From positions 1,984,001 to 2,048,000 of the forward strand of contig NC_059436.1 of assembly GCF_021028975.2 (NCBI RefSeq): 64,000 bases of DNA, in the 5' to 3' direction. Positions within the stretch are counted from its first letter, which is position 1, and each line of letters begins with the position of its first letter. Positions 1-21,775 of the stretch are shown here, one piece after another. A program made the translations under genes and the position numbers. Source of the stretch: Sphaerodactylus townsendi. Lineage: Eukaryota. The notes under the pieces were generated by a model. That model did no database searches and was not told the DNA's origin. It worked only from the letters and a program-made list of their open reading frames with translations.

Positions 1-2129
1 CCATTGAAGTCCTACTCTTCAAACCTTGCTGTCCTCAGGCTTCACCCCTCAACTCAGAGCTGGCAACCCTACAAGAGGCAGATGGGTAACATGATTATTT
101 GCCTTTCTGGTAAGTGGCTGAGAATAAAGCCACGGAGTAAAATGCCCTACTTGCTCCATCATTTGTTTCCCTTAAAAGTGAGTCTGTGTGGAAATTGTTT
201 TACTGGCCTTTGATTACAATTGATAGTTTTAGTGTATTAATCTTTGCATGGAGGGCAGGCTAGGCATGGCTTGTAATCAACAAGGTGCTAAATTATGTTG
301 TCTGTGTTACAGTCTTTGGCTTTTTACATTTCTAACTTATAATTGTTCTCATCCCTACAGTCTGATAGGAAAGGAAGTATTCATGGTTGGGACACAGAAA
401 CTCTAAATGGGCAAATATCTGAGTACAAAAGAGAAGCAGCTAAATTCATGAGGTTACAACAGAAGGGTCTCCAGGATGCCAAATAATGTTGCTCTAGGGG
501 TATAGTTGGCTGCTTTGGAGGGTGGATTTTATGCCATTCTACCCCATTGAGGTCTCTCTGCCAACCCCATCCTCCCGAGGCGCCATCCCCAACTTTGTGG
601 CATTTCCCAACCCTGAGAGTTGGTATCCCTCCTCCAGAGTTATATTTGACCCACAAGGTGCAAGTAGCTCACCCCTGATTTTGTGCCACAATCCTCCCAG
701 TGTAAAATGGTGGCTGTACCTCTTGTTTCCCCATTGCTATAGGTTTGCAGCAGACAAACCTCAGACCTGCACTTCAAGCTCCAAATCTTCATTCACAGAA
801 TGGTGTTTTATTCAGTAGGCCTTGACTCAGCATCTTTACCCATTTCAGAGCTTATTGCATTAGAAAACGCCATAGGCCCCTGCCCCCCAGTCTGGAAATC
901 TCTGATGCCGCAGACACTTCCTTCAAGAACTTCTCTGACTTTCAGAGGCTGAAAGAAGAAAGTTTGGATTTGGAAGCGAAATCACCACTGTGACTGTGAT
1001 ATAGCCCAGAGCTATTTAGGGAATCAGATTAACACAAAGTCTTTATGAGCCATCAGCTGTATAACTGTGGGGGAGTGAATCAGCAGACCGGTAGCCTGGA
1101 GGCCAGCTCTTAATTGAAAATGGAGAGAGAGAATGGATGTAGGGTTATATCCAGCAGTCTGGAAAATACTTTGCATGTTTTGGATCAGGACTGGCTGGAA
1201 AATGGAAGTTTCGTCCTGTAAAAATAAGTCAGCTCAGGGTCTATTCACACTGTGAAGATGATGATCTTATGAAAAACTGTCAATGTCTGCGGCATTCTGC
1301 AAAAAGACAGGTCCCTGTTGCAGGGGGCTTACCCTATACACTTTGACAATAGGGGCTGGAAGAGGGAGCATCTGGCATATGGTAGCCTAGGAAAGTCATC
1401 TCCCAGGGGCTTTACCGTATGGCCACCATGAGCCAGACTCCATTTCAGACATACCATTGCAAATGCTTACAGCTGCAATGCCTCCAGATGGTTGTGGGAA
1501 TAGGCCAAGTCAAACATGAGTTAAATACAGCTTTTAAAAAAAGATCTCGAGATGGCGCTTGCCTTGAATTTTCTCCTTGTTTTTATTGTTAATTGTGTCA
1601 TTAATTCTATGATGCATTTTATTGCATTTTGTACACAGTTTTGTACGCAGTAATGTTTTTGCTATTGGCCACCTTGGGAATTTTGCCTGAGAAGCTGATT
1701 GTAAGTCTGAGGAATAACTAAATAAATTAAATGTTGTCATTCAAAACTGGAACAAAAAAGCTGAAGAACTGGAAAGGCGGAACCCTGTCATTTTATAGAA
1801 TAATAAGAAGGGAGCGAACGCAGTATAGTGGTTAGATTAGAACTGGGGAGACTTTGACATCAGTGGTGCACTTGAATAATTTTAGCCTCCTGCCTTAATT
1901 GTCTCAGGACCCACCTATTAATTAGCTATAGTAGTAGATGCTGGAATCCTAAGAACACTTCCTTGTAGGTCAGGCCCATTGAATAAAATGAAGCTTGCTC
2001 CTGAGAAAACCTACTCATGACAGCTTTTCTAGGCTGTAAATCTGTACACACTTCTGTGGGACAATCTCCAACTGAACATATGAAAAATTAAGAGTAACCA
2101 TAGCTAGGAAAGCACGTTGACTTAGTCTG

Positions 2130-4175
2130 GAACTTTGTGGAGCAGCAGAAGCTTCAAGAGGAAAATGGGCTTTGGATGTTACACAACATCGAGCCTGGAT
2201 CAGGGTTCAAGCATTGCAGGGACAACCAACAACTTGGCGGACTCTCTGAGCCACGATCTGACTGTTCAACCAGACTGGTCCCTGGATCAATTTTATCTAG
2301 ACCCTGTCTTTGCTGCTTGGGGGATCCCAACTATCAATTTCTTTGCTTACCACAACTTGAACTGCCAGACCTATTGCTCCAGAGCAGGGCTGGGCGAGGG
2401 GTTCAGGGGCGATCCCTTTCAGTTCAAATGGAACAGAATGTTTCTATATATTCCCCTCCCCACCCCGTTCCCCCTGCTGCACAAGACGGCAGCCAAGATC
2501 AGGGAGAATTGTACATCCTGCATTCTCATACCACCATATTGGAGCAGGCAGCCATAGTTCCCACGGCTGCACAAGATGACCAAGGGGAGCATGTTTCCCT
2601 GGCAACGGAGGATCTGCTTCTGAATGGAAGAGTTCACCATCACTATATTCCTTCCCTCCACTTGGCCGCTTGGTTGATCATTCACTGAGCAGTTGGCCTG
2701 ACAATGTGAAAGAAGTCCTGCTCTCCACTAGAAAACTCTCCACTCGCAATCATATGAAGCAGAGTGGAGACATTTTTGTGGCTGGCGGATGAGAGAAATG
2801 TTGATCCAGTTACCTGTTCTCTTCCATTGGTTTTTGAATACCTGTTGTCATTAAAAGAGTATAATTTGACCAATTTTGTCTATAAAAGTGCATTTGGCTC
2901 GTATTTTGACCTTTCATGTGGGTTTTAAACTCTGCTTTGTTGTTCTCTCACCCCTTCTGCACTAGGTTTTTGAAGGGCCTTGGTAATCTTTTCCCATAGG
3001 TTAAAGAACCTTTACCACAATGGAGTCTTCGGTTCCTTTATGGTACTAACTAGTCTTATGGGAAAGCCCTTTGAGCCTAGGGCCACATGTGATATGACTC
3101 TTCACTCCCATAAGGTGGCGTTTTTTATCACCATCATCTCTGCAAGGAGGATTAGTGACCTTAGGGTGTTGATTGCTGAGCTTCTTTTTCTTAAGTTTCC
3201 TCCGAATAACGCTAGTTATGGCCTAGTTTATACTACCTCCACAAGGTGGTTTCTTCTTTCCATCATCCATAGATGTAACATATGATTTTAAATTTAATAA
3301 TTTAAGAATAGTGTATAACCACTGTCTCATACCTAATGCCAATAAAGGTTATTGCATCTTTTCCATTCATCCCAGAACATAGTCATCCCTACTTTTTGTC
3401 CCAACCCCTCTAACAATTCTGAATGGGCTTTCTTCCACTTCCTAGATCGAAGGATGGATCTTTCTTTTTATACAGAATGCATGAGACCATTTAGAAGGGA
3501 TATCTTCTTGCTTATTGCTTTTCGGGGTCTCACAAGGGGATGGGTATCTCCACTCAAACATTTGAAAGACTGGGTTGGCCATACATCCAAAAGGCTTATG
3601 CCTTGGCAAAGGTGGACTGTCCTATGATGGTCAGCACTCAACAAGAGTTCAAGCATCGGCTGCCTTTCTAGTGAGAATCAGGATTGAAGATATCTGCAGC
3701 AACTTGGTCTTCATCCTTGATGTTTGTTCATCATTGTGCTGTGGATGTGGACTCGGTCAGAGAATCCAATTGTGTGGGGAAAGCTGCATTACAATCTATT
3801 TTCAAGTGAATGTTAATAAAGTTTCCACCTCACTCTGTCCATCCTTGGCCATTGCGATTTTCTATTGCATAACATTTGCCTCCACCTCCTGCTGGTTTAG
3901 CTTGCTACTCTCCCATGTGGGTCTGATAGAATAGGAAGAGCAACGCTTGCATTTACCTGTAACTGTTGTTCGTCGAGTGGTCTTCTGTGCAGTCACTCAT
4001 ACCCTCCCGCTGGCCCCGCTGTGCTCTGGGCAGTCAGCCACTGTGCTGTTTGCCTTTCAGTGTGTTTGTTGCATGTATACTAGAAGAGAACTGAGGAGAG
4101 TGCTCCCTCCTGTCCTCAGCCTCTGATTAGCAGAGGAGATATTCCTGTTCCAATGCAGGGAGGAGGGAGAGGAAG
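2130..4175 (+). mobile_element. Degenerate DIRS1-like tyrosine-recombinase retrotransposon, 3' part (RNase H end, MT-like domain, YR, ICR/terminal region)
   Basis: Translated motifs: (H)IAGTTNNLADSLS (RNase H C-terminus); WGIP.INFFA..NLNCQTYCS...GDPFQFKW...LY...FPLL.K...KI....CILIPPYWSRQP (DIRS MT-like domain); KPFEP...KVAFFITIISARRISDL, SFH/LSQNIVIPTFCPNP, HSTR and ATWSS (YR). The 3' segment gcatttacctgtaactgttgttcgtcgagtggtcttctgtgcagtc resembles reptile DIRS ICRs. Stops and frameshifts are present. Confidence 0.88.
3265..3356 (+). mobile_element. ~97-bp LINE 3'-end insertion interrupting the DIRS recombinase (mirror 46223-46319)
   Basis: Ends in atgccaataaaggttattg. The right arm shows an 11-bp TSD gatggaaagaa at 46212-46222 and 46320-46330. 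Removing it rejoins KVASSFH and LSQNIVIPTFCP. Confidence 0.75.
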
Positions 4176-4526
4176 TAAAATTTGGATTTGGATTTATTCA
4201 AGAATAAAAATTTGGATTTATTCAGGGAATAAAAATTATCTGTAGGGCGCCAAATAAGACAAATAACATATATTCGGATATACCCTAATATTTGGGCATA
4301 GCTGAAAAAATCTGGGTCCATCTGAATTTTTTTGGGCATTTTTTGGGCTTTTTGCATTTTGGCCTGTAGGGGGCATTTTTAAAACTAACGGCACTAAAAT
4401 TTTAGGTTATCATCCAGAGACTATCTTCCTGATAATAATGCCCAAGTTTGGTGAAGTTTGGTTCAGGGGGGCAAAGTTATGGTCCCTTAAAGTGGGTGCC
4501 CCATCCTTCATTGTTTCCAATGGGAG
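4176..4526. mobile_element. Probable DNA-transposon internal/subterminal fragment (mirror ~45076-45414)
   Basis: Contains ccaagtttggtgaagtttggttcaggggggcaaagttatgg...cattgtttccaatggg, a motif I recall as recurrent in lizard DNA transposons, plus short aaaatttggattt repeats. No TIR/TSD resolved. Confidence 0.4.
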
Positions 4527-4823
4527 AGAAGAAGAGGAGGAGGAGTTTGGATGAGTATCCCCCCCCTCTCCTGTGAGGAGACTCTGGGGCTTACAATCTC
4601 CTTGCTCTTCCCCCCTCACAACAAACACTCTGTGAGGTGGGTGGGACTGAGAGAGCTCCGAGAAGCTGTGACTAGCCCAAGGTCACCCAGCTGCATGTGT
4701 AGGAGTACAGGCTAATCTGAATTCCCCAGATAAGCCTCCACAGCTCAAGTGGCAGAGCAGGGAATCAAACCAGATTCCTCTAGATTAGAATGCACCTGCT
4801 CTTAACCAGTTCGCCAATGCTGC
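4527..4823 (-). mobile_element. Squam3-type tRNA/CORE SINE (mirror ~44770-45075, +)
   Basis: tRNA-like head (ggttaagagcagg...ggtttgattccc), CORE gggtgaccttgggctagtcac, tail ...tataaatccaaactc(ctc/ttc)n. Confidence 0.85.
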
Positions 4824-5041
4824 CTCTAATCCACATGGTATCTTGATCACTTCAGCTGCTAATTTCTTACCATGATGGTTAGGGAAAGAAAAACTTTCAT
4901 CAGAAACAGAAAAAATCATTAGACCAAGGTGTAGACGATCTCAAAAGCTCCCTCTCAGTCTTGTCTTCATAGAAGTTCAAATTTTTAAAGCCTTCGTTTA
5001 ACCATTAGACATAAACTCTACCAAGAACCATTGTGGGAATC

Positions 5042-8000
5042 AAATACAAATACAAATACAAAACCTTTAATGGCATATAAAGAGTGGTAAAATACAGATT
5101 ATGTTAAAACCAATTGACTAAAATTTACACAAAGGTTTCACTCTTGATCCAAGTGCCTTTGTTAAAAACCTGGCAACTGATTCAGTAGTGTGGGGATGAT
5201 GGTCACTAAGCAGGTGTGAAACTATTTCCTTGTCTGATCTCACTGAAAATTTCTTCAAGATGGCCTCGAGAAAAAGCAACCGATAGACTCCCAAAACTAT
5301 GCAATGATGGAGAGCTTGTGCAGTTGTTTCGGGTAGGTCTGCTTTTACCAGGAACAAGTCCTGTTCTCCTGTGGGATGCCAAGGATATCTGCCTCTTGTT
5401 TGGGCAGTCGGTAACACATTTAGCCGAAAGCAAGCATAAAATAATTCATGATGTGGATTGATTAAATTACTCATATATTTAGCCATAAAACCCGGCAATG
5501 GTGGTGAAATGCCATAAAATGTGGGAGAACAAGTTCTTATATTCCAGCTGTGAGAAGTCAGTTCCTTCAATGTCAAGAGTACGCTGTTTCAAAACTCCGG
5601 AAGCCTGTTCTTCATCCATCAGTAGGAGTTGGTCAAAAAAGATAGCACCTATGTTGTTTATTTGCTTGATAATTTTTGTGTTCCATGTGGAGTCGAAGTG
5701 CTCGCTTAACAGAAAATATGTGAGACTGCCCGGGAGTGGCTCTATAACAAGGCGTAAGCCAGTATTTAAACAACAAAGAGAGCCAAACCCGGGAAAAAAT
5801 TGTCTTGGCTCCGGTTTCTAAACAAAGAACTTGATACGTGACTGAGTTTGGGAAGACCTAATAAACGCACGTAAGAAAACAAAGATTGAACACTCTCTAC
5901 TTTCTCAGCGGTTTTTGCTCCCTCAGATTGGAGCTCCGTGAAAGTAATTGTGGCAGTAGTTTTAACTGAAAATCCCCATTGCGGCAGGAAAAAATTGACT
6001 GCCTCTGGTGTGAAAAAATCTGGATATTTCAACAATTTAATTTTACTACTTGTATTGAGAGTCTGGTGGATATGAGAGGTCCAGGTTAAGGAATGATGGA
6101 AGGTGATTCCTAAATATCTGTATGAATGGACCTGTTCAATCAATGTACCGCTTATTTTCCACGTGCTGAGTTTTTTTTGAATTCGAAAAGACCAGCACTT
6201 TGGAATTGTTATAATTAATCGACAGGCAATTGTTTGTGCAGTACGCCGCAAAGGCTTGAAGTGAAGTCTTTGCAGGCCCACCTTGGACCGAGACAGTAAC
6301 ACAGTGTCGCCTTGCATAGAGAAGTGTACATGTGGGTCTTTGTCCCAAAATGGGTGCTGCGACTTTCAGTCTGAGATAAAATGAGGAGCAAAGGTCAAGT
6401 AAATAAAGATTGAACAGGAGAGGAGCAAGTGAATACAACCCTGCTTGACTCCCTTGTTAGAAACTATAGGTGAAGTTAGGCGTTCAAGACGATCACAACG
6501 AACTTGACAGGTGTAGTTGAGGAATACAACTGGCTTAATAAGAAACAGTAATCTCTGGTCTATTCCCAACACAGTCAAATTTCCCACAGCTGATTCCTGG
6601 GGATAGAGTCGAATGCGCATTTCAAATCTAGGAAAGCCGCGAAGGAGTTTCCCACCCTTTGGGTGGCAATATTTCTCCGCCAAATGGCTTAAAACCAGAC
6701 AATGGTCAAGGGTGGATTTACCTGTGGCATATCCTATCTGTTCCGGGCCTCATAATTGAAGAGGACCAGGCAGTGAGATCGTGACATAAGGTACCTATGA
6801 AAAGCTTACTTCGTAGCCACTGAAAGCAAGCTTATGGGGCGATAGTTAGATGGATTTGATGGATCAGCCTTTTTTATGTAGGAGGTACAATGATAGCTTC
6901 CAGTCCAGTGCTTAGGGATACAGCCACTGTTGTTAATTTTGGTAAACAGGGTAGCCAAAATAGGGGCCCAGAACTCCGGGAATCTTCTAAAGAGGTCAGG
7001 GGGCAGGCCATCTGTGGGCTCCAGTTTTCCCTTGTTTTAGGTCATCAGATATAAGGGTGATCACCTCTGTCAGAGCTGATGGAGGCCATTCAGGTAAATG
7101 CTTTGCTGTCTAGCCAGTTGCACATGGAGTATCCAAAAGTTCTGGATTGCAGAAAATGGTTGTAAAATGTGTCCCCTATGCTTCCACTGAAATCTGAGAA
7201 CTGATGGCTGCATAGGGCTCACGGGCACTTGAATTAATTATACCAAAAGCTTTTTTGCTGTCTCTGGAGTTAAAGGCTTGATGGAGATTGTTCCAAATCT
7301 TTGTAAGATGTAATTTCTTTTTGGTCTTTAAAAGATCATCATGATAGGACTTTCTAGCTGCGCAGGTAATTCCTTTGATAGCTAACAATTTCTTTTCCTC
7401 TAAGTTCACAATGATGAAATAACTTCCTCGGAGTTGGGACTTGCTGCTCATACACATTCTCACAAACTAGGTGGAGGGATTCACTGAATGTGAAAATTTA
7501 TGATGTGATTGATTACTGGAACCCTGGAATGGTTAGATAGGAAACCAGTTCATATTGGTAGATTTGACAAACCTCCTCTGCTGTCCTTTGCAGCAGTTAA
7601 CTGTTGAAGAAAGTTAGCCATCCGATCATCAGAAAGGAATGAGCGACGCTGGTTCAGTTTCTTTATGCGCCCAGCTGGCCGGACATGACAGGAAGACCCT
7701 TCTTCCTGAGCTGATTTGCTTTGAAGGGATTTGTTTATTAGTCTAAGAAGAAGGGGAGAGTGCTCACTTTCCGCTCTGAGCTGCTAATTGCAAAGTGAGC
7801 AATGTGGTTTGTTAGTTCAGGCGATATTATTACATAATCAATCACACTCACCCCACGTGCAGATCTAAACGTGAACTTTCCAGGGTAATCAAAGGGAGGA
7901 AGACCATTTAAAATTACCCTATTTGCTGATAGGCAAAGGTCTATCAAATGCGGGGAGCTGCTTGATTTATGGTGCGGACGCTGGACAACCTGCATTGGAG

Positions 8001-8383
8001 ATATGGTGTCAGATTGAATTTCATCCAAATTTAAGTTTACATCTTTGACTTAGGGCTGAATCATTTTCTCCCATCCTGGTGTTTAGATCACTCAGCAATG
8101 ACGACGGGTGTCAGAGGATGTTCTTGCTCGGCCGGAAGTATGTATTGATGGAATCGTGACCAGTTCTCTACAAGAATGCTTGCCTCTTCTGCGGGTGGCA
8201 AATAAACATTTACTAGTAAAAATTTCAGATTGAGCTGCGAAATCAATAGGGCTTGGGCCAAAGGCGGGCACGAGTTTAGTGCTACTGCATTGATTTCTGC
8301 GTTGAGAGAGACTAGGATACAAGTACCTGCTCTCATCCTCCCTCTGGCTTTTAACCTGAATGCTGGAATTGAGAAGGAGGCAT
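5042..8383 (-). mobile_element. 5'-truncated non-LTR retrotransposon (APE endonuclease + RT + C-terminal Cys/His motif; RTE/RTEX-like), frameshifted as assembled
   Basis: Minus-strand motifs: LLVNVYLPP and ILNG...FTF....SVIDYVIIS (APE); NKGVKQGC, LAPLLFNLYL, LLYA/DTVLLS, INYNNSKVLVF and HSYRYLGITF (RT); FRLNVLPTAQTRGRY...ETTAQALHHC (C-terminus). The 3' end is atgccattaaaggtttt+(gtattt)n. 13-bp TSD cattgtgggaatc at 5029-5041 and 8384-8396. Clade assignment is from motif recall only. Confidence 0.92.
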
Positions 8384-10984
8384 CATTGTGGGAATCCTGA
8401 CTGCCGCTTCTTCATTGCCTTCCCCCTCATGATTTATTCCTGGCAAGTGGATAAAACCCCTTGTGTGACCATACACACACACTTTGATGCTCCCACACTC
8501 CCACCCCTCTAACACACACCATTTGAAATATTGGCTAATGAGCTATTCATCTATAATATACTCTCTAAGAGGAGCCAGCCGCCTCAACCATATCAACTCG
8601 CAAATCATCTTGGGTGACACTTTATAACAGAGCTATTCTCATCTGCCTTTTGGCAGTGGCAAGCTGTGGGCCGTGTGGGAAGAAAGAACGCAAAAAAAAG
8701 CCACACATCTTATTTTCCGTCATAGCGTAAACAGGGTTAAAGTGGGAGAGAAACCCACAAGTCTGCCACAAATTGCCTCTCTGTGGTCCCAGCTCTCTTT
8801 GCCCTACCAGCAAGAGTCAGCATCAAAAAGGATTACAAGGTGGAGCAGAGTAGCCTAGCTGTCTGCTTACTCTCTTAAGTAAAAGGATCAATCAGTCTCT
8901 GTGGTGAGCCGCCCCAGACCACCATTTCCAAGCCCAGTTCCCTTTGCTAGGCAGCCCCTGATTTCCCAGATTGAAACCAGGTATTTCAGGGAGCTTGAGA
9001 AACTCAGCATCAAACACTTTCTTGTGCTGACTGACCTCCCGCTTCCACGCCTGTAAACAATTATTTTTTGTCAAATTATCTTCTCTGATTTAATAAAAAT
9101 CCATGGGCACTTTTCTTAACTGGTTTTCTATGTAGGGTAAAAATCCATTTACTAGAGGCTTCATGGGTAGAAAGGGCAGCTGAAGCGTTTCATGCCATAA
9201 GATCCCATCAAGCTTCTGTTGAAAAAAAGGACAGGGCATTTCCCCCCCTCCAGGCAGTGGGCAACCCTCACTTCTGTGGTTCAAGGGGACAGGCAGTTGG
9301 CAAACCTACTTCTGTCCAACCAAATTCTGAAGCAGAGGTGATGAACATTCACTGGAATGGGGATGTATGAGCCATGGAGGGTCAGGTGTACCCCCAAATC
9401 TCCACAGATCTCCAGTCCCAACCCAGAGCTGGCAACCATAGGAAGTGTTCTGCATGCAAGGTGTTTTTCCTTGTGGAAGAGAGCATTCAAAGATCTCCCC
9501 ACCCCCACTAAAAGTCAAGCATTCTTTCCATTTTAAGTTTTCACATAGGAGAGTCTCCAGAAGCAAGATTTCTATGTTGTGAAACAGCATCAATTGTAGG
9601 GGACACTGCAAATAAAACTGAAGATACCTTTTAAATTGATCGCGTCTATGCTCTCCCATTCTGAAATTAAAAGTAAAGGAAACCTAATGATATTCCCACT
9701 TATATCACACAACTATAGGTAACCAGATGTTACTTTTCCAGCAATCCCCAGATTCCTGTTTTTTTTCCATACAGTATAAAGCCTGCTTTAAGTACTTACC
9801 CCCCCCTCCACCCAATTTAAGGCACCATCAATGACTCGACACTTTTTTTTATACCTTCTTCCCATCATGTGAGGAATTGGTGCTAGAGAGCAAATTGCAC
9901 AATTTCCTGTCAGATTCTTTCCCCACATCTAGATCTTCATTTCCTAAGGGAAATATTTTAAGATTTTTTAATGTAAGGTGACAGAATCAGCTTTTACACC
10001 TGTGACACACATTCTAATTTTTTCTTAACACGCTTATCATTCCTCTACTCCAAAGGGGCTTTTGCATTTTTTAAAGAATTACATATTAAATGTAATCTTG
10101 AATGTTCTGTTTGAAGGCAAGCATTCCAACAATACAACAAAGAGGTTTCTAGACAACATCAAAGAACACTTGTTCCTTCCTCAGACATGCACATATAAGT
10201 CAGTGTATTAATACAGCAGATATCCCAGATTCTTACGTAACTCATTCTAGGTTGTCTTGGTGCTTTTACATGTTCATTTCCTCTCACAGAATTGTATTTT
10301 TTAACTCATGATTTCCTCCAAGGAATTCAGAGTACCATACATGGTTCTTTATTTTATCCTCCTAACAACCCTGTGAGGTGGAGTTTAGGCTGAGAGAGTG
10401 ACTGGTCTAAGGTCACCCAATCAGCTCTTCAAAGTCATGGATTTGAGCCCAGATTTTAACAGTCAGGCAGCCCAATCCTATTGGGGGGGGGGGGGGGGGG
10501 GGAGGGAGGGAGGAAAGGGACTTACACCAGAGGGAGGGCAATTGGAAGGTGAGCAGGGTGCTGTGGACCTTGGGACACCTGACCTGGAAGATGGCCTGGC
10601 CTCCTAAAGCAGTGTGGTTGTCCAGGAGGACACTGGCACAGTGGGAAGCATCTCTTGGGGAAGGAGACTGACTTGGTCAGCTTCCACCCGGGCTTTGGAG
10701 CTCGGAATGCCCTAGCGTTGCCTCTTGCAGCTACAATTCACCAGAAAGGATGGCATAAAGTCCATTTTTTTGGGCTATGGAGTATTTCCTGTCCCCCAAG
10801 GCAGCATTGGCAACCCTACCAACTCCTGGAAAATTCAAGACTTCTGCCTAGTTTGCCAAAGGACTGAGGTAAAATATTTATTGGAAGAGGGGTATGTCAG
10901 AAGCAAGAAGACCACCAAAGTTACTGTCACACAATATATAATTAATCTAGGGAATTTGATGGACCAGAATTAGGTGAGAATTGT

Positions 10985-11225
10985 TGGCTGCTGGGTCTGG
11001 CACATTAAAAGTACATCAGCCATATTCAGTTGCAGAGACAACGGTAGTGTACCAGTTTCTAGCAGGGGTGGCCGGTGAGGGCAGCATAGAGGGGAAAGGC
11101 TAGTTGCTTTGTTGCCCTGCTTGTAGGGGCGCTCCCCAGACCCGACATCTGGTTGTCCATTGTAGGAAACAAGATGCTGGGCTAAATGGATCTTGAGCCT
11201 GGTCCAGCAGGCACCTCTTTGTTTT
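10985..11225 (+). mobile_element. Old CR1 LINE 3' fragment (mirror ~41885-42110)
   Basis: ...aagatgctgggctaaatggatcttgagcctggtccagcaggc... resembles the CR1 3' terminal region. The tail is degraded. Confidence 0.5.
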
Positions 11226-12485
11226 TTCTCTTTAAGGGGAGGTGCCTGGAGCTCCTTCCCCTTTTGGTTCTTCCATCCTGTTCCAGGATCAGTTCCCCCC
11301 ATGTCTGCTGTTTATGGGAAACAAAGCAGCAAGAGATCTAATAATGGCTCTCCCAACATTTCATCTGATGTGGTCCCTGGCAGTATCGCACTACACAAGT
11401 AGTAGATGCGTAGTGCTCATCCACACACACAAATCGAAATTCACATGGAATGCTCATCAGAAGGAAATGCATTCGGGATATGTCTTTCAAGGGTTATCTT
11501 CGCTTTCTACTGTGTGCAGGGATTTTCTAATGTAACCATGTTTTGCTTATTTATTGACTATGCCCATGCATTCTAGTCCAGAAACTTGCTGGGACATTCG
11601 GGCTTTGTGATGCCACTTATGTCCCTGTGACTGGCCTTCACATGAAGAAAACAGAGTTGGGCTCTGATCAGCCCAGATTTGTGACCTTTAACTGCTAAGT
11701 CAATGGAAGAGGCAACTGTCTTGGGTAGAATAACTGCTGGCAGTTTCCTGAGTTGAGAAAACTGGGTGGGGTCTCAATTGAGATCCAGCCCATGCATGCA
11801 ACCATAAACCCATCTCCTTCTAATTTCATTTTACCTAAGAGTTTCCAAAACTCTACGGAAACATTTGACACTTAAAAATAGAGCTGGAATGCTGTTTGGA
11901 AATGTGGTTAGAGTATTGATAGTGCTTTTGGAGATATTTATACTTCTTTTCTCTCCCAGAATTTTTTTGCAATCATCTTGAAAGCTTAACTTTAAATAGG
12001 CACATGAGTGTGGGCATTCCAGAATGAGTACAGATGATCATTTTTGAGGAACACAATGTGGAAACACCAATTCACCTTCTCAACTCTCCAGCGCTTGAGA
12101 TTTGTTCCTCGTGATCTCGTGCATACTACCTGTTTACAGAAAAATCGGAAGGGGGGGGATATGCTCATTTTGTTTGTCACCTTTTTAAAAACATGGATGT
12201 TACAAGTGGGAACAGAGATGCCAACTCCACCTAGGCTTTGTTGCATGCATAACATGAAGGCTCTGCAGCGCTTAGGCATTCCTAACCAGATGTATGAAGA
12301 GACCAGTAAATGCACCACATTTCAATGGGATTCACTCCTAGTAAGCTATTGTTAGCATTGCAACCTTTAGATGCCACATATGACAAGCAAATCAGGTCTT
12401 GTACAGAACAAATAAAATCAGAAGGCTTAACTTTTTTGGTGGGGGGCAGGCCCTCGCTGGTAGGGAAAATAGACACATGTGAAAA

Positions 12486-12780
12486 AAAAAGACTTGGCTT
12501 TTATAACCCACCTTTCTCTAGCACAGTAAAGAGTCTCAAAGCAGCTTACAATGGACTTCCCCTCCCCCACAACAGATGTCTTTGTGAGGTAGAGGTGGAG
12601 GCTAAGAGTTCTGAAGGGACTGTGGCAAGCCCAAGATCACCCACATGGCTTTATGGGTAGGAGTGAGGAATGAATTCTCCAGATTAGAGTCTGCTGCTCA
12701 TGTGGAGAAATGGGGAATTAAAACCGGTTATCCAGACATATAGAGCCCGCTGCTCATGTGGAAAAGTGGGGAATCAAAGG
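12486..12780 (-). mobile_element. Squam3-type SINE with an internally duplicated head (mirror ~40435-40715)
   Basis: CORE and tail motifs present. The segment gctgctcatgtgga(g/a)aa..ggggaat occurs twice (~12692 and ~12749). Confidence 0.75.
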
Positions 12781-12901
12781 ATTTCTTTATTTTATCTTCG
12801 TGTAATCCTCCCTTTATAGTTAGCAAACTCATATATAAAAAAAAAAGCAATTGCTTGAATCTGTCCCTTCTGCTCTTTCTCTGCTAATATGTACATATAT
12901 A

Positions 12902-12946
12902 TTTCTTATGCCTAATAAAGGTTTTTGGATTGGATTGGATTGGATT
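12902..12946 (+). mobile_element. Minimal (~42 bp) LINE 3'-end insertion with (TTGGA)n tail (mirror 40281-40322)
   Basis: Sequence tatgcctaataaaggtttttggattggattggattggatt. Perfect 13-bp TSD tatatatgtatat at 40268-40280 and 40323-40335 in the right arm. Confidence 0.7.
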
Positions 12947-13163
12947 ATATACATATATACCCAACAGACTGGAGGAGAAAGCTACACACATTTCAGAAGT
13001 TCTCAATCCCTGCAGGGGGGTGGAAAAATGAAGAAAAAAATGAGAAAGGCAGCTCTTGTTGGGGGGGCTCATTCAGGGCCAAAGCATTCTTTTCTCTGAG
13101 TTGGGTACAGACTTGTCACCCTCCCACTCCCCGGGCCTGTATCCGATCTCATATTACAAAGTT

Positions 13164-13463
13164 GAGAGCCAGCGCGATGGTGTAGTGGTTAAGAACAGTG
13201 TTGCACTCTGATCTGGAGAACCGGCTTGATTCCCCGCTCTGCCACTTGACCTGTGGAGTCTTATCTGGAGAACCAGGCCAGCTTGTGCACTCCAGCTTGC
13301 TCATGCCATCTGGGTGACCTTGGGCTAGTCGCCCAGTTCTTCGGAACCCTCCCCACCTCACAAAGGTGTTTGTTGTGTGGGGGGAGAAGGAAAGAAGATT
13401 GTAAGCCCTTTGGAGTCTCCTTACAGGAGAGAAAGGAGGATATAAATCCAAACTCTTCTTCTT
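13164..13463 (+). mobile_element. Squam3-type SINE (mirror ~39796-40085)
   Basis: A-box tggtgtagtgg, B-box-like region, CORE gggtgaccttgggctagtc, tail tataaatccaaactcttcttc. Confidence 0.85.
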
Positions 13464-14960
13464 TATGAAAGAAAAAAATGAAAGTTGATTATATCATAAA
13501 AGCCCACCCTACATAAGCCTTCCCTACATTTCCACTTATGTATATTGGCTAGCATGGAAGGTGGGGTGGGGAGGTTATTACTCAGCTCTTGTTGTATTCC
13601 ACAGACCGTTGTGTGGTAATGGCTGGCTGCACCTGCCATTTTCTCTCATATCAACCCTTATTCTTGCGTTAGAGTCTCTAATTAATACACAGTATACAAA
13701 TGTTCATGCTGCAAAGTTAGCCAAGGCGATAAGTGTGTTTGTTAGCCAACAGTACATGTTATGGAATCCTGGCAATGGTAGTGTTTGAAACCAAGCTCTA
13801 TAAAATAAAATTAATTATAAACAGGGGAAACAATCCACTTGCTGTATGTGGGAAAGGCATGGTAAACTTTATTAATGACAGGATTTGGATAATTGGACGG
13901 GGGGGCCAGGGTTAATGAGAAACATGACGCTGGAAGATGGTGAGAGTTGCACCACTGGAAAAGCAGCTAACATTTTAAGCGACATTTTCCACTGCCAGAT
14001 TTGAAAATCTGTGCGCGATGACAGGTCTGCAGTCCTCATTGTGATCAATGGGTTTTTACGACCGGACACCCATCAGCATTGGCCCCCACTCCCCCCCCCT
14101 TTGGCCAAGCATTTAGAGTCCATGTGCTTTGCTTAATTTTGGACAGCCCCAAATGTTTGTACACTCTCTCTCAGTCGGCTGTGGTGACTTTTTACAGACT
14201 TATGAAGGTGTGCCTAAATAATAAAAGAGACTTTGTTGTTTCTCAGTCGTGCATGGAGGGGTTATTTGCAGGCTTAAAAAACGACAAATCCAACATCCTT
14301 ACTTTATTGCACAAAGACGGTGGAAAATTCTTCAGCTGGGGTGATACCACAAAGGGTTTTTAAAATTAGCCTCATCATGTTTTATTCATCAAACCTTTAA
14401 TTATAATTTATATATTAGTGTGAAGAAGGCAAATTTCTCCTCCTACACACATCGCGCTGGAGCTTTTCCCCTCTTAAATATTGATTTTTAAATCAATTAG
14501 TCCTGTTGCTTTTGATCCTCTCAGCCTTCAGTTACAAGCACAAGAGTTGACTTTGAATCAAAGCCGGGCCAGAGCTTTTGTGGCTGAAGGTGTTAATGAC
14601 AGAGTAGCATGAATTCTGCACAATGGAAAGATATGATTTTTTTGTAATAAGCTGGACAGCCACCAAGCACAATACCCTTTCCACTGCTGAAAATGAGCCT
14701 GTCATTGCTCACAAGAAGAAGATGGATACATTAATTAGCTGCTAGTTTGTGAAATGGAGGGAAAAAAAAGCCTAGTGTAATGGCTAAAGGCTCCCTATCC
14801 ATGATCCCACTTGAATACTGTCCTTGTTAAGGTCTTTCATAGGTTGCTAGCACTGGGTTGGGAGAGATTCTGGGAGTTTCTGGGAGTGGAGGAGGAGGTG
14901 GAAGGGAAAGGAGCTCAACAGAGTTTACAATGCCATGGAGTCCTGCTTCCCGCCCGTCCC

Positions 14961-15178
14961 CTATGGCTACCAATCTTGATCCTCCTTGATCTCAGATTGC
15001 AAATACCTTAACAGACCAGGTGCTCAGGAGCAGCAGCAGCAGCAGAAGGCCATTGCTTGCATCTCCTGCCATTGAGCTCCCAAAGAGCACCTGGTGGAGC
15101 CTCTGCGATTAACAGAGTGCTGGACTAGATGGACTCACGGTCCTGATCCAGCAGGCTAGTTCTTATGTTCTTATGTTC
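14961..15178 (+). mobile_element. CR1 LINE 3' end (mirror 38122-38338, -)
   Basis: gtgctggactagatggactc...ctgatccagcaggctag followed by the 8-bp tail repeat (ttcttatg)n, characteristic of reptile CR1. Confidence 0.85.
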
Positions 15179-15294
15179 CAGATGCAGGCGTTGATCTGTT
15201 GGAAGTTTTTAAAAGATATGCTAGTTCAGTGGCATTCAGTCTGCAGTTCATAGAGAGCCACATGCGGCAATTACCATCAGTTAGAAGACTCCAT

Positions 15295-15440
15295 GGCCCC
15301 TTCCGCTGCATAAAATAATGCGTTTTTCAAACCGCTGCAACTTGTTTGCAAGAGTGGATTTTGCCATTCCACACAGCTTCAAAGAGCATTGAAAGCAGTT
15401 TGAAAGTGCATTATTCTGCATGTGCTTGGAATATGAGTCC
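15295..15440. mobile_element. Harbinger/Tourist-like MITE, noisy left-arm copy
   Basis: Reverse complement of 37867-38006. Confidence 0.65.
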
Positions 15441-16857
15441 AACTTGTTGAATGCCCCATTCCTGGCACTGGGATGAGGAGGGGCGGGGAGGCGACAACTG
15501 TCCAGTTGTTGGGATGAGAGGCTGCAGAAGAGATGGGCCCTTTGTTTGTATCCTTGGCATGAAACCTGGATCTTGCAGCTAACCCATCCTGCAGTCTGTG
15601 TGTGCTAGTGACTGTTTCAAGGTGGAAACCATCTGCCCACCTGAAGTCCTACAAGGACAATGACTGTACCACATTCCTGGAACATAGGGCGGGTGCCACT
15701 CTGAGGAGCATTGCTCATAAGAACCACAGAGTGACATGTCGAAGCTACATGGGATTCTTGAGGTAAATATTACTGAGATAACCCATTAGGTCCTCCCCCC
15801 ACCCATAGGGCCTGGCCTGACCAAGTCACATTTATGTGACTTGTAACAAAGGAGTTCGGCACCCCTCCGTTATGCTTGACTTCCTTCTAGCTTGCTAAGA
15901 AAGCGAGTGGCTTTGCAAGCTATCTTTCCCCCCATCTGTCTGAGAGAACAATGCAGCCCTCATCTTGCTTTCTTGCTTTGCTGGGTTACCAGGAAACTCA
16001 GAACACATAATGTCATATGCAGCTGATCACTTGAGCTCTTTCCGTTGCTGGTAACCTGGCTCCAGATCTTTGCTGTAGACTGTGGAGGGTGCTTTTATTA
16101 ATTTTCCCATCGTTGCAAACTTCTCAGTGTGTGTGCTGTACTTTATGACGCAAGCAAATCTTGAATAAATAGTGACACATTGAAAGGATGGATGGCTTAC
16201 TAAACCACTCAGCCCATTACTGCGGTGAATGAGGTTAGATTGTCACTCTCAGGAAGGAAAACTTGGACTGGATCATGCCTTTATTATTTTTAAAAGTCAC
16301 ATTTTACAACATGTACATCCAGCTCCTAGTGTTTTTTGGATATTGGGCAGAATTTAAAAAAAAATTGATGGGGAGATAAATGGTAAGTATGAACACAATG
16401 CATGTATCAGAATTTTAACATCCTTATATCAAATAGGCAAGGGCTGGCTCCCATGTAGATTAATAAACCCTGTACTTTAAAAGAGCCAGCCATGGATTCT
16501 ACAAACCCAGGGGAATCCCCAGATTGATTGGATGATTAGTTTTAAGAAATGCTCTGGGGTCAGGATACTTCATTATGTTTTCTTATGAAGACTTTACCTG
16601 CAGGGCGAGGTCTGTATAGAAGTTCCAGGTCTCTCCTGGCCACCAGAGCAGAATAGGGGAGTCAATTCACGGTCTCCTGCTATTCACGGTGTTGACAATA
16701 GGATGAATTTACACAGATTAGGGCATTTGGGATAGCAGCCCTTCAGCTTTGTGGGGTTTTCTGTCCTCTGGGAGGTCCATGTTTGTTCCATCCCATCCAG
16801 ATGTCAGGCAGGCGGTCAAGATGGTTTTATTGCAGAGTGCATTTGAAGCTTAAGTAA

Positions 16858-17312
16858 GAGCGAGAGCATGAGGTATAGTGCAGGGGTGCAGGAACCTGCG
16901 GCTCTCCAGATGTTCAGGAACTACAATTCCCATCAGCCTCTGTCAGCATGGCCAATTGTGGCCATGCTGGTAAGCTGATAAGGAAACAGACCTGAGTATC
17001 TGGAGAGCCGCAGGTTCCCTACCCCTTTATATCAGTTAAGAACAGATCCCACTCTAATCTGGAGAATCGGGTTTGATTCCTTGCTCTGCCACTTAAGCTG
17101 TGGAGGCTTATCTGGTGAACTAGCTTAGCTTGTGCACTCCAACACATGCCAGCTGGGTGACCTGGGGCTAGTCACAGTTCTTCAGAGCTCTCTCAGCCCC
17201 ACCTATCTCACAGGGTGTTTGTCGTGAGGGGGGAAGGGAAAGGAGTTTGTAAGCCCTTTTGAAGTCTCCTTACAGGATAGAAAGGGGGAATATAAATCCA
17301 ACTCTTCTTCTT
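16858..17312 (+). mobile_element. Squam3-type SINE interrupted at its A-box by a hAT MITE (mirror ~36035-36487)
   Basis: Head gtatagtg|MITE|..gttaagaacag...gggtttgattcc, CORE and (ttc)n tail. An additional orphan SINE tail lies at ~17405-17460. Confidence 0.8.
16881..17027. mobile_element. Palindromic hAT MITE, left-arm copy with degraded 3' half
   Basis: Termini caggggt...acccct. Mirror of 36320-36467. Confidence 0.75.
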
Positions 17313-17617
17313 CCAACTGCCTCCCTTTTAACACACATCTTTATGTCATATATGAATCCAAAGTAACTGTCATGGCTTTCCTCAAATAATTCTGGAAGCT
17401 CTAAGAGAGAAAGGGGGGATATAAATCCAACACTGCTGCTGCTTCTTCTTTTTCTTCTTCATGCATAATATCATGCTGTTTTTATTCTTTTGGGCTGGGT
17501 ACCTTGGTCTTTCAGTTTTAAACCTCTATGATATTAAGAAGATAATGGTTGCTTTAGTTGAAGTTATCAGCTGCTTTACAAACATATGTTGGCTGAAAAT
17601 GGGCTAGGAAAGCTTTA

Positions 17618-17643
17618 AACCAACCAACCAACCAACCAACCAA
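17618..17643. repeat. (CAAC)n microsatellite (mirror ~35710-35730)
   Basis: aaccaaccaaccaaccaaccaaccaa. Confidence 0.9.
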
Positions 17644-19699
17644 TAAATAAATTAGCAAAAGGGCCCTAGACCTAAGGAAGCCGAGAGGCATTTTACATGG
17701 TGGCAGCTGTATTCCTTTTTTAAGCACTAAGGATTCTATTTTTATGTAAACTAAATTAGGCACATATGCATATTTTAAAAATTAGGTTTTAATCTATTTT
17801 TTGCAGTGTTTTTAATAAAACCAACATCTGGCAGGATTTGAGACAAGAACTGAGGATTTGGGTCCAGGGATACTATTTGTGGAAGGCAGGGTGAATGTGC
17901 ACTTGTTCCCTTTCTATGCCTCTGCATGTCACACCACATGTGATTATTCATCCTTACGCTGACTGTGGGGTACAAAGCCAGAATCTTTGGCGAAAAGGAA
18001 CAAAAACAGATGAGGGAGACTGCGAGGGTTGAGAGTGGACCTTCCAGCAAGTGCACGCAAGCATAAGGTCCCAAATTCAGATTGAGCCTACATGAGGAGA
18101 GGAAAGATTTCCTTGAAACCGGGGTCTATGCAGCATTACAGCATTTTGGGAGAAAAGAAAATGGAAAGAAGACGAGTATCTTTTGGCTGGAATAGGATCC
18201 TGGAATACTCTAGTTTTTTGAATGCCATTGAGCTTGCTGCATAGACCCTGGGCGAGACAGACACACTCATAGGCCATTTATGCAACTACCACTTGATAAG
18301 CAGTCAATCCTCAGTCTTTGCCTTCCAGTGGGGTTTTTTTCTGTTTTGCACCACCCTTTTTTTTTTCCCTGTGTTTTTTTCTACCTGCGTCTGTTGTGTG
18401 ACAAAACTGTGCAGGAGAGGAATGGTCAATATATCTCTTCCCTCTCTGCAGTGTCCTGAGTCAAAACTGGCCACCCACTCAGTTGTAATTGAGTTTATGA
18501 AGAAGATGTTGGGTGGCGAGAGATTTCAGTAGTTTCTGTCTTATCTAATTTAAGCCAAAGACTCATAATACTCTTTTCCCCAAATTACATTTTTAATAGC
18601 CCATCGAGAAACTTCTGGCAGATCTCTTGACTTCACCTGATTTCCATTTCCCCTGAAATAGAGGCCCTGATTGAATCACCTGTGGGACCTTGGCCTATCC
18701 CGCCACCCCCTAGGAAAAGTAAAAGATTTCTAGGATGGCAGTGTCGCATCAGGGTAGTTTGCACTTTCAGCAACCATACTGTGAAGATTTTTATAGAGTG
18801 ATCTTTTAGATGAACAAGTGCAGCCAACTCCTCTTACTTGATGACTGGCACAATGACCAGAAGCAGTAGTCATCAGCTATTGGGAGACTTGAAGATAAAG
18901 AAGTTGGGGAGGTGTTTTTTTTTCCTTTCAAGACTTTGCAAGTAATGAGCTGTTGTGATAAAAGTCTTTTCCAACTTTCCTGACACTGAAATTAAAAGCC
19001 AGGAGGTTGTACAGTTTATTTTATTTCCCAGCCTCCTGGGATTTGTTTCATACTTGTCTCCTGTTTCCTTGAATGACGGAGCCTGGAGAGGAGGGAGAGG
19101 TTCTCCGTGGAGAATTCAATTCGGCAGAATTACGTCCGTTTCAAAGCTCTCTCCCACGCATTGACTGCATTGCCGGTAGCTTCCGGTCGAAAATCTCTTT
19201 GCAGCCCTCATTTTTGTGCCAGCTTTGATAAGAGTCCCTGTGTAATCAGCAAAGCAACCGTTAGCTGACTCCAATACTGTACGATTTCCCCTTGTGGCTT
19301 CTTCAGTCCTGTTTATAATTGAAGTAAGGCTCCTTGCTTTATGCTGAGGGCTATGAAAAAAAGAATAAGTTAATAAGTAATAAGTAATAAGACAATGGCT
19401 CGCGTCCAAGATCTTGTTTCTCAGCCTTGTTCCTGAATGCACAGCTAAATGCATAGCAGTAGTTTTTAGCCCTGTGCCTTATATATTGGATTAGTCTAGG
19501 TGAATTTTCCACAGATCTGAAAGGAAATTCACGGAAGATGCAAACAGACCCTACGAAGAAAGAGGCATTTGCAAACTACAGTTAAGATATTCTTGAAAAA
19601 AGGCCAAAAATTCATTATGATGATGAAAGACCAGAGGAGAAACTAACTTTTTCTTCCAAAGGCCCTTGCACTTAGGCCCTTTCTGCATGGGCCATAAAC

Positions 19700-20165
19700 A
19701 GCGCCCTGGGGACAGCAAAAACGCCATTTGGGAGCTGTTCGCACCGGCGTAGCTGCTCGCGCAACCGCACAGCCCTCGCACCTCCCGAGCGTAGCGAAAT
19801 ACCGTTTTTCTGACCTGCCGGCTTCCCCAGCGAGGTTTACAGAAAACGGCGGCTTCCAACCACTACCATGTGAACGGCAGCGGCTGGAAGGAGCCATCCC
19901 TCCCCCCTGTGACCGGTGGACCTACCGTCTCTGGCGGCGTCTGGAATGGTCGAGGCAGGGCAGGGGGACATGTCCCCTGGCCTTGGCGATGCGGCTGGAC
20001 TGTCGCGAAGATGGTGCGTCACCTGGGCTGCAATAACTGGCACAGCGTGGCGCCGTTGTCCCGGTAGTTTCTGGGACCGATGGGTGTGAAGCGGTCCAAG
20101 AGGGGTTGGGTCAGCGTCGTAATGTACGCAAACCCAACCCCCACCGTAACCATCGCGAGGAAATG
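19700..20165 (-). promoter_or_regulatory. CpG island, putative promoter/first exon (left-arm copy)
   Basis: Sharp local rise in GC and CpG with no recognisable transposon hallmarks, a CRE-like tgcgtca, and a candidate donor ACG|GTAGGT on the minus strand at ~19925. Confidence 0.55.
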
Positions 20166-21775
20166 GCCATAAACTCCAACTGCTTCAGTCCCAAATACAT
20201 TACTGCCCTCATTTTGTCCTCTTTGTTGCTTTGGTGGGGATGTCTTCATAAAATGTTGTGGTGTGAATTGCTACACTTGTCGTTTTTAATTGTAAGCTGC
20301 CTTGGGCATGTATATGAAGAAGTGGCATAGAAATATCCTAAATAAATATACTTCTCTTGTTAATGATTCTTTGTCCATTTGACTTTGTAGCTGCTAGGTT
20401 GTATATTCAACCAGGGTTGCACAACAGCAATCGTTTGCAACTGGATGAACTTGTCTATAGGAAAATTCAGTTGAGAATTATTACTATAGCACAAAGATAA
20501 TGCTATATTCCAACAATGTGTGCATGGGAATAGTTTAGACTCCCAGTTGGGGGAGTGGAAGCTAAAAACAAATTCAAAAGCACCTGAAATTTGGAGAGGG
20601 GCTCCTGCCTGCATTCCCATTATCTGGTCCCCACTTATCAGGCTGGCAGGGGAAAAATGAAGGGGGCTCTTCAGTATTGCATCAGAAGTGATGTCAACCC
20701 ACTGGAGTAATACCCTGGGATTCATACTGGATTAGATAGACCACTGATTTAATCCTGCTGGGCTGTTTTTATATCCTATGGAGAAAGATGACATGCATGC
20801 TCACACACAGAGCATCCCATAATTCAACACAACCCTTCCTGATCCATTTGTAGTATACCTGGAAACACTGAGTCACAAATCAATCTTCTTTGAATTTGGA
20901 GAATTTGAATTATGAGAGGTGAAGGAGTGTCAACCAGACCTCCAAGGAGGCCATGTTGAGAAAACTCCCTTATAATTACTCCACAGAGGAGATGTGATGG
21001 TATGGTTAAGGTCTTTATTCTACATGCATAATTTTAATCCAGCCCTGATTAACGCTGGTGGCTAGATAAAAACAGTTGGAATGGCACTCAATCCAGCTCG
21101 TATGGCGTGTTTCCTGAAACCATGAAAGCATAACCGGGGCTTAGTCAATATAATTAATTTTTTTAATGTGGCATACAAAATTACTTTTAAGTGACAATGT
21201 CAAAGTAGTAACTGTTTTTGATGAGAAAATGATGTATGATGATGCAATAGATCAGTTTCGTACATTCTCGCGAGGACTTCCAGTAGTATCATCCTTTATA
21301 GGCAGAACCTAGCATTAAAGAAGTGGAAACAAGATGTGTCTGGCTTTTTATTTGTGTTTCAATGTGCCAATGATTCCCAGTTCCTCTCCAGACAACTCAT
21401 AAACAAGAATTCCAGCACAAAGAAGTTTAGAGAATTATTTTTAACTATCATAACATTTAACACAAAGAAGCTTTCTACTTAACCACACAGGAAGCAATAG
21501 ATAGATAGGACTTGAATTCACAAGGGAGAAATGAAGGCTCTTCCTTCACCCCTATGAATTAATCAAAATGTCAAGATTGTAAAAGATAGTTTTTCTACAC
21601 CAGGTTTCATGTTTACACCTGCTCCAGTTTGACAGCTAAAATACTGGTTTAACGATACAAAATTTCTTACATCTAGTCAGCTGATGATGATGATTTACCA
21701 TATCTTTGTTCTCAATTTCTTTTCTTTTTAAAATACTCTTAAAAAAATAAGAACATGTAAAACAATCATAGCGAA

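What the first reader, a model, noticed from the sequence alone, without database searches (positions are those of the whole stretch)
5029..8396. Arm-specific 3.3-kb RTE/RTEX-like LINE with filled and empty sites in the same window: a likely polymorphic, active family
Seen: the left arm reads cattgtgggaatc-[LINE]-cattgtgggaatc, while the right arm has a single copy of the 13-mer (gattcccacaatg, 44555-44567) in near-identical flanks. The insert has APE, RT and C-terminal Cys/His motifs, starts within the endonuclease, and ends in (TTTGTA)n. Inference: it is either a heterozygous insertion or a post-duplication insertion, and in both cases very recent. The many frameshifts may therefore be uncorrected long-read errors in a repeat rather than decay. 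This family may be poorly catalogued.
Basis: partly seen in the sequence, partly recalled or inferred. Interest (0 to 1): 0.75.

Follow-up and report, generated by a model that had tools for sequence, protein, structure and literature searches.

The report
Young lizard LINE, misassembled mirror arms
A shortened jumping gene (a LINE) sits in a lizard genome between two identical 13-base insertion scars and is missing from the same spot in three public samples, so it is likely a recent insertion that only some chromosomes carry, which is ordinary in lizards; the mirror-image second arm is likely an assembly error rather than a real duplication.

Summary
Observation confirmed: 13-bp target duplication (5029-41, 8384-96), one copy at 44555-67, APE-RT-Cys/His remnant, (TTTGTA)3 tail. 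Short-read contigs of three samples (3 of 4 runs laid) join straight across the site, so the empty allele exists. The arms are likely not a real duplication. Contigs match the right arm base for base, at the depth of unrelated loci, and run about 1 kb past the central N gap without folding back. The left arm carries about 6% extra bases. Frameshifts are mostly such errors (37 extra-base versus 3 missing-base). Error-free islands around both junctions suggest real short reads spanned them (inferred). The copy lacks ORF1 and about 45 N-terminal endonuclease residues, so it is non-autonomous. Roughly 50-65 near-identical family copies reach this far 5'. It sits in a squamate LINE clade (41-42% to nearest proteins), probably RTEX; no labelled references were available to test that. 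Polymorphic RTEX insertions are already published for Anolis. The scan noted RTEX-like lizard LINEs in other genomes but no look-alike of this sequence. Ordinary; interest 0.25.

The parts
5029..5041 (+). Target-site duplication, copy at the element's 3' end
5042..5063 (-). 3' microsatellite tail, three TTTGTA units; one base of overlap with the target (inferred priming microhomology)
5064..5117 (-). Short 3' UTR; no unusually stable fold (z 0.11 for 5042-5140)
5118..8378 (-). ORF2 remnant (APE-RT-Cys/His), 5'-truncated; 40 frameshifts and 3 stops in the assembled sequence, mostly extra-base errors
5301..5432 (-). C-terminal Arg/Cys/His motif region of ORF2
6108..6847 (-). Reverse transcriptase motifs; the catalytic YADD-type motif at about 6303-6324 is split by an extra-base frameshift near 6312
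7834..8378 (-). AP-like endonuclease lacking its first two motifs (about 45 residues missing)
8384..8396 (+). Target-site duplication, copy at the truncated 5' end; family contigs continue past 8383 into upstream LINE sequence (X5 record 22: 114 nt)
8094..8696 (.). Near error-free island centred on the 5' junction (inferred footprint of junction-spanning short reads used in polishing)
4707..5289 (.). Near error-free island around the 3' junction (weaker: two other islands of 310 and 361 nt occur in 1-5041)
44555..44567 (-). Empty site, single copy of the 13-mer; matches the joint seen in runs X1, X3, X4
1..26774 (+). Left arm: error-rich second copy of the locus carrying the filled allele (likely false duplication; may extend left of the window)
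26775..26865 (.). 91-N gap at which the two arms meet head to head, their ends 9 nt apart
26866..49623 (-). Right arm: accurate copy of the locus where tested (26866-30400, 40797-44567), with the empty allele

Best explanation
This is a 5'-truncated copy of a young squamate LINE, probably of the RTEX clade, likely inserted recently by target-primed reverse transcription and likely carried on only one chromosome of the assembled animal, while the two arms are likely one locus assembled twice. Shown: the 13-bp duplication, the 3' repeat tail, truncation inside the endonuclease, the empty allele in three public samples, single-locus depth, no fold-back at the gap, and about 6% extra bases in the left arm. 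Inferred: an intact family member's ORF2 protein nicked the target, primed on the tail and stopped about 3.3 kb in, and repair duplicated 13 bp. An error-rich long-read sequence of the filled haplotype was then placed, inverted, beside the accurate empty-haplotype contig across a gap. Polishing reads mapped to the accurate arm or to other LINE copies, so the left arm kept its errors except within about 300 bp of each junction, where only it fits.
For: Joint 5028->8384 skipping 3355 nt with 13 shared letters in X1, X3 and X4, at depth 66.9, 32.2 and 18, like the flank; X5, with thin cover, shows none. Contig lengths equal the right arm, not the left: 1889=1889 versus 1998, 2949=2949 versus 3146, 1735 and 1736 versus 1861. 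Single contigs span 26866-30400 with 0-3 substitutions in X1, X2 and X3. They run 979, 1035 and 1035 nt past 26866 (X4 170 nt), and no strand-change joint is listed. Their depth equals that of unrelated contigs: X3 28.1 versus 28.9 and 28.2; X2 21.4 versus 20.9, 23.8 and 23.2. All 12 indel rows shown within the LINE are 'left out' in family contigs (326 further rows not shown). There are 37 extra-base against 3 missing-base frameshifts. The run 8384-8696 is the longest of 724 difference-free runs in that segment, and no frameshift lies between 8094 and 8378. X5 record 22 (232 nt) has 0 differences and X1 record 6 (260 nt) has 4 and no gap. Single family contigs near the 5' end have 52-66 times flank depth, and summed depth rises towards the 3' end (Spearman -0.96 to -0.98). 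The RT falls in a 33-row clade (SH-aLRT 99) whose named members are squamate.
Against: No run showed the filled junction directly; contigs drop rare variants, so neither presence nor homozygous absence is shown. At the 3 sites where X1 differs from the right arm and the 1 substitution where X3 does, the left arm has the right-arm base; 1 of all 27 listed alternative bases is in the left arm. There is thus no SNP sign that the left arm is a second haplotype of these samples. The 3' island (335 nt on the flank side) is only the second longest of 147 runs in 1-5041. Extra-2 and missing-1 shifts are frame-equivalent, so the 37:3 split depends partly on scoring. Three stops remain and were not checked against accurate reads. 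Depth ratios are rough, not copy numbers. The tree is the quick search, without bootstrap or labelled clade references.
Confidence: 0.8

Rival explanations
1. The insertion is real but comes from one long molecule: a somatic or mosaic insertion, or a long read from a different animal than the short-read contig. The assembled animal would then not be simply heterozygous.
For: The left arm has raw-read-like error (about 6% extra bases). No filled junction was seen in the runs laid. The left arm lacks the alternative bases of X1 and X3.
Against: The error-free island centred on the 5' junction (8094-8696) is best explained by many accurate reads spanning that junction, which a one-cell event would not supply.
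Confidence: 0.11
2. A real inverted segmental duplication exists, and the LINE inserted into one arm after the duplication.
For: The arms are 93-95% alike and differ by the insertion. The runs laid may not be the assembled animal.
Against: The arms meet at an N gap. Contigs in 4 of 4 runs pass the gap end without folding back and sit at single-locus depth. The left arm's extra bases are absent from every contig measured.
Confidence: 0.04
3. An old, decayed insertion whose frameshifts are real, with the empty allele kept as an old polymorphism.
For: 40 frameshifts and 3 stops. In Anolis, RTEX insertions are rare and mostly fixed (PMC7561263, passage).
Against: The target duplication is perfect. 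The accurate parts have 0-4 differences from family contigs, family contigs lack the extra bases, and the unique flank shows the same extra-base bias.
Confidence: 0.03
4. The filled allele is an assembly chimera: a LINE read spliced into the flank by a gap filler.
For: It lies in an artefactual arm, and the filled junction was not seen in contigs.
Against: An exact 13-bp duplication, with the tail abutting one copy and a clean 5' break at the other, is the mark of retrotransposition, not of a misjoin. Both junctions lie in accurate islands.
Confidence: 0.02

Closest known systems
RTEX (RTE-X) clade LINEs of squamates, e.g. RTEX-2_Acar of Anolis carolinensis (PMC4476161, PMC7561263, PMC5753468; passages read)
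   Same: APE-RT LINE in lizards that leaves polymorphic insertions (Anolis: 496 RTEX insertions, e.g. 380 fixed and 116 polymorphic in one population). Microsatellite 3' tails are listed for algal RTEX (PMC3747384, table). Anolis proteins fall in the same 33-row clade as this copy.
   Different: In Anolis RTEX is rare and mostly fixed; here the family looks young and abundant. No sequence labelled RTEX could be compared, so the name rests on recalled motif likeness and on the literature.
Intact, unnamed squamate ORF2 proteins P0134/P0017 (ENA), P0019, and Podarcis and Anolis UniRef entries (e.g. A0A670K0W2, A0A803T0U9)
   Same: Collinear over the whole remnant; APE + RVT_1 architecture; shared C-terminal Cys/His region.
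   Different: Only 41-42% (P0134, P0017) and about 36% (P0019, Podarcis) identical to the X-broken read-through. This is a distinct family, and this copy lacks the N-terminal endonuclease motifs.
RTE clade (BovB, RTE1)
   Same: APE-RT LINE with a short-repeat tail and target duplication (recalled); present in lizards (PMC7561263).
   Different: RTE has only a rudimentary ORF1 or none, unlike RTEX (PMC3905857, passage). Relatives here lie on contigs of up to 5.8-6.1 kb around a 3.3-3.4 kb ORF2, which leaves room for an ORF1. The C-terminal Cys/His motif is not typical of RTE (recalled).
False heterotype/homotype duplications in genome assemblies (bioRxiv 10.1101/2020.05.22.110833; passages read)
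   Same: Two copies of one locus placed side by side with a gap between them, with differing consensus quality and no excess depth in reads.
   Different: Here the copies are inverted, and one is far more error-rich; the passages read describe tandem placement.

Membership tests
APE-type non-LTR retrotransposon (LINE) insertion | AP endonuclease upstream of a reverse transcriptase in one ORF | tested here: met
   Collinear with intact relatives that carry Exo_endo_phos + RVT_1. The window's own fragments are too broken for Pfam: 1 of 11 gave a sub-threshold endonuclease hit, none RVT_1.
APE-type non-LTR retrotransposon (LINE) insertion | Target-site duplication, 3' repeat tail, 5' truncation | tested here: met
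RTEX clade | RT groups with Repbase RTEX references, apart from RTE, L2 and CR1 | not testable with these tools
   No labelled references were held. The tree of 102 of 134 sequences places the copy in a squamate clade only.
RTEX clade | Real ORF1 (sometimes an esterase) ahead of ORF2 (PMC3905857) | tested here: inconclusive
   Truncated away in this copy. Relatives' contigs leave about 2.5 kb of room. No esterase hit in the 6 ORFs scanned from distant metagenome loci.
RTEX clade | C-terminal Arg...Cys-x-Cys...His-x4-Cys region (feature recalled, from no call) | tested here: met
   Present at 5301-5432 and conserved in alignments A1 and A2
RTEX clade | Microsatellite (non-poly-A) 3' tail | tested here: met
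   (TTTGTA)3; compare algal RTEX tails in PMC3747384. Not specific to RTEX.
RTE clade (BovB/RTE1) | ORF1 rudimentary or absent; RT groups with RTE references | tested here: inconclusive
   No references. No DUF6451 or DUF1891 hit at E<=0.1 in 10 relatives; their use as RTE and L2 markers is recalled.
Polymorphic insertion | Empty allele present in sequenced samples | tested here: met
   3 of 4 runs laid
Polymorphic insertion | Filled allele present in raw reads | tested here: inconclusive
   Only indirect (accurate islands). The DNA runs were held as contigs only.
Autonomous, active element | 5' UTR, ORF1 and complete ORF2 in this copy | tested here: not met
   Starts about 45 residues into ORF2, after the first two endonuclease motifs
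Autonomous, active element | Intact, transcribed full-length member of this family | not tested
   No whole genome was held, and no RNA run was laid
Real inverted segmental duplication | Doubled depth and fold-back at the centre | tested here: not met

The most novel reading that the evidence does not exclude
A currently transposing RTEX-type family, with no protein closer than 42% in the collections searched, is one of the main live LINEs of this gecko lineage (roughly 50-65 near-identical long copies and many more 3' fragments). That contrasts with the old, rare RTEX of Anolis and would offer an amniote RTEX that could be assayed in cells. At the extreme, the filled arm is a single-molecule capture of a de novo insertion.
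Probability: 0.35. Interest if true: 0.45.

Novelty: new member of a known kind. Interest (0 to 1): 0.25.

Why it matters
One polymorphic LINE insertion in a lizard is routine: 339,149 polymorphic TE insertions were called in 28 anoles (PMC7561263). The value is modest. The site is a clean presence/absence marker. It points to a young RTEX-like family with no close protein in the collections searched, which a repeat library should include. It also warns that this assembly holds an inverted false duplication of at least 26.8 kb with about 6% spurious bases, which will fake pseudogenes, decayed elements and segmental duplications.

Tried and rejected
No whole genome is held for the window, so family copies could not be collected. 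Word-index protein searches with two raw window fragments found nothing; phmmer with the C-terminal fragment gave 12 hits, which opened the family. Pfam on 11 window fragments gave no RVT_1 hit. Rfam found 0 families in the window. The viral-contig scan found no relative. The metagenome scan kept 80 distant loci (23-46% identity); none matched the element's DNA, and 6 ORFs from them gave no esterase. ESM Atlas with P0017 gave only generic APE-RT clusters. The PDB search gave only L1 and R2 proteins. The careful tree did not finish, and the quick tree was used; 32 of 134 sequences with short RT cover were left out. The 3' UTR folds no better than shuffles. The SNP test for a second haplotype was negative or uninformative. 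No host gene was found by Pfam in 33 long frames of 26866-64000; short exons would be missed. I first read the indel bias as deletions in the right arm and rejected that. Look-ups of earlier scan notes by sequence found nothing.
Full report
Observation. The 13-mer stands at 5029-5041 and 8384-8396 on the + strand and once, reversed, at 44555-44567. There are three matches with up to one mismatch, against 0.21 expected. The window is a large inverted repeat: 1-5041 pairs with 49623-44555 (94.9%) and 8384-26774 with 44567-26875 (93.2%). The arms meet at a 91-N gap with their ends 9 nt apart. The insert reads on the minus strand, and ends in a 54-nt 3' UTR plus three TTTGTA units.

The element. 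Raw fragments were too broken for Pfam or for two word-index searches. phmmer with the C-terminal frame found 12 proteins; 3 of the 10 looked up carried a name, all from the lizard Phrynocephalus. A profile of five of them found 226 proteins at E<=1e-20, 120 of them listed, headed by intact 1050-1136-residue APE-RT proteins from unnamed contigs and from Anolis and Podarcis. A frameshift-aware alignment of the insert to a profile of 19 relatives covers columns 18-1074 of 1081, with 40 frameshifts and 3 stops. Read through with X at the breaks, it is 41-42% identical to P0134 and P0017 and about 36% to the next. Residue 46 of P0026 aligns to 8378, so the first two endonuclease motifs, ORF1 and the 5' UTR are missing. 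This copy could not move itself even if error-free. A family contig in run X5 runs 114 nt on beyond 8383, which confirms truncation. In a quick RT tree of 102 of 134 sequences the copy sits in a 33-row clade (SH-aLRT 99) whose named rows are Anolis, Podarcis and Rhineura. No RTE, RTEX, L2 or CR1 reference was available, so the clade name is not tested. RTEX is my best label, from the C-terminal Cys/His pattern (recalled), the repeat tail, and the room for an ORF1 on relatives' 5.8-6.1 kb contigs.

Empty allele. Ten public runs hold part of 4820-12400. Of four laid, X1, X3 and X4 (samples S1, S2, S3; two organism labels; one study) each have a contig that joins 5028 to 8384, skipping 3355 nt with 13 shared letters. 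Their depths are 66.9, 32.2 and 18, like the flank. X5 has thin cover and shows no joint. One of these samples may be the source of the window and so not independent. These are contigs, which show presence only: they cannot say whether those animals also carry the filled allele.

The arms are one locus. The contigs have the length of the right arm, not the left: 1889 = 1889 against 1998; 2949 = 2949 against 3146; 1735 and 1736 against 1861. Two further pieces differ from the right arm by 3 and 9 nt and from the left by 114 and 39. In 8384-26774 the left arm has extra bases at 421 gaps and lacks bases at 41; in 1-5041 the counts are 26 and 51, so the far end of the right arm or the start of the left is also imperfect. 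On 26866-30400, X1, X2 and X3 each give one contig over the whole stretch with 3, 0 and 1 substitutions. They run 979, 1035 and 1035 nt past 26866 (X4 170 nt). A true palindrome with a 91-nt spacer would bring that sequence back on the other strand; no such joint or piece is listed. Depth equals that of unrelated contigs caught by short repeats: X3 28.1 against 28.9 and 28.2, X2 21.4 against 20.9, 23.8 and 23.2. This fits the false duplications described for vertebrate assemblies (10.1101/2020.05.22.110833, passages), and it removes the post-duplication option for these samples.

Frameshifts are mostly errors. 37 are extra-base and 3 missing-base (extra-2 and missing-1 are frame-equivalent, so the split is partly a matter of scoring). 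All 12 indel rows shown in the LINE are bases that high-depth family contigs leave out (326 rows not shown). The unique flank of the same arm has the same bias. The three stops were not checked against accurate sequence.

Is the filled allele real? It was not seen in reads. Two things support it. First, the anatomy: an exact duplication, the tail against one copy and a clean break at the other. Second, the error pattern. The left arm is identical to the right for 313 nt from 8384, the longest of 724 runs in that segment. On the LINE side there is no frameshift from 8094 to 8378, and family contigs match with 0, 2 and 4 differences and no gaps. The island 8094-8696 is centred on the junction. 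A similar island runs from 4707 to about 5289, but it is weaker, as two other runs of 310 and 361 nt occur in 1-5041. I infer that paired short reads anchored on the filled junctions fitted only this arm and polished it, which implies a germline allele in the polished animal. Against this, the left arm does not carry the alternative bases of X1 (0 of 3) or X3 (0 of 1 substitution), and has 1 of 27 listed alternatives overall. Nothing therefore ties it to a second haplotype of those samples, and a long read from another animal or a single cell is not excluded.

Family. Single contigs near the copy's 5' end have 52-66 times the flank depth in three runs, 87-127 times further in, and summed depth climbs steeply towards the 3' end. 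Depth is only a rough guide to copy number. Together with the near-identity in the accurate part, this indicates a young, abundant family with the usual 5'-truncation profile. Present activity is inferred from polymorphism; no intact member or transcript was shown.

What is known. RTEX is a Repbase clade, with L4 and L5 in human (PMC5753468). RTEX-2_Acar exists in Anolis (PMC4476161). 496 RTEX insertions, mostly fixed but some polymorphic, were called among 339,149 in 28 anoles (PMC7561263). RTEX has a real ORF1, unlike RTE (PMC3905857). Algal RTEX tails are microsatellites (PMC3747384). PMC9004415, PMC12477816 and PMC4209135 were also checked and added only mentions of the clade. For all nine papers I saw search listings and keyword passages only; I read no supplements, and these might hold labelled RTEX sequences or gecko repeat tables. 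Nine searches on RTEX or RTE-X showed no paper describing a gecko RTEX family. The library lacks most subscription journals, and Repbase and Dfam could not be searched, so this is weak evidence of novelty. Earlier scan notes call this genome a gecko with a patchy, error-bearing assembly and report RTEX-like LINEs in other lizard genomes; they are unchecked leads. Look-ups by sequence found no look-alike.

Verdict. A real, recent, non-autonomous LINE insertion that is likely polymorphic, displayed beside its empty allele by an assembly error. New member of a known kind; interest 0.25.

Noticed in passing
window 1-49623: Inverted false duplication of at least 26.8 kb around a 91-N gap; the left arm has about 6% spurious extra bases. 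Any gene or repeat annotated in the left arm will look decayed.
   Followed up: yes
window 4534-4827, 12500-12755, 13164-13468, 17035-17313, 36035-36321, 39792-40085, 40458-40718, 44769-45068, 49826-50137, 52200-52497, 59572-59868: A roughly 290-bp interspersed repeat in at least 11 places (some are arm mirrors), 67-89% alike, with a CTT-rich end; looks like a squamate tRNA-derived SINE (label recalled).
   Followed up: no
window 36320-36467 (mirror 16881-17026): 148-bp near-perfect palindrome flanked by an 8-bp direct repeat, at the end of a SINE copy: likely a young hAT-type MITE (label recalled).
   Followed up: partly
window 31446-31657 (mirror 21809-22022): 212-bp inverted repeat whose sequence recalls Penelope-like terminal repeats (recalled, not tested).
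   Followed up: no
window 52437-52646: Two 100% identical tandem copies of 105 bp at the end of a SINE copy: an assembly slip or a very recent duplication.
   Followed up: no
window 11529-11543: Run X4 (organism B) has 166 other letters in place of 13 here: a second presence/absence difference about 3 kb from the LINE.
   Followed up: no
L007:3-4412: In a distant metagenome LINE, a 320-residue open frame is separated from the APE-RT frame by one in-frame stop, like the read-through arrangement noted earlier by the scan for a wall-lizard LINE.
   Followed up: partly
L035:119-4897: A single 1593-residue ORF with an RNase H1 N-terminal domain and a MYND finger ahead of APE and RT: an unusual LINE architecture.
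   Followed up: no
P0023, P0027, P0039-P0041: UniRef names several Anolis and Podarcis members 'ribonuclease H', but Pfam finds no RNase H domain in the two scanned, P0023 and P0039: likely an automatic mislabel.
   Followed up: partly
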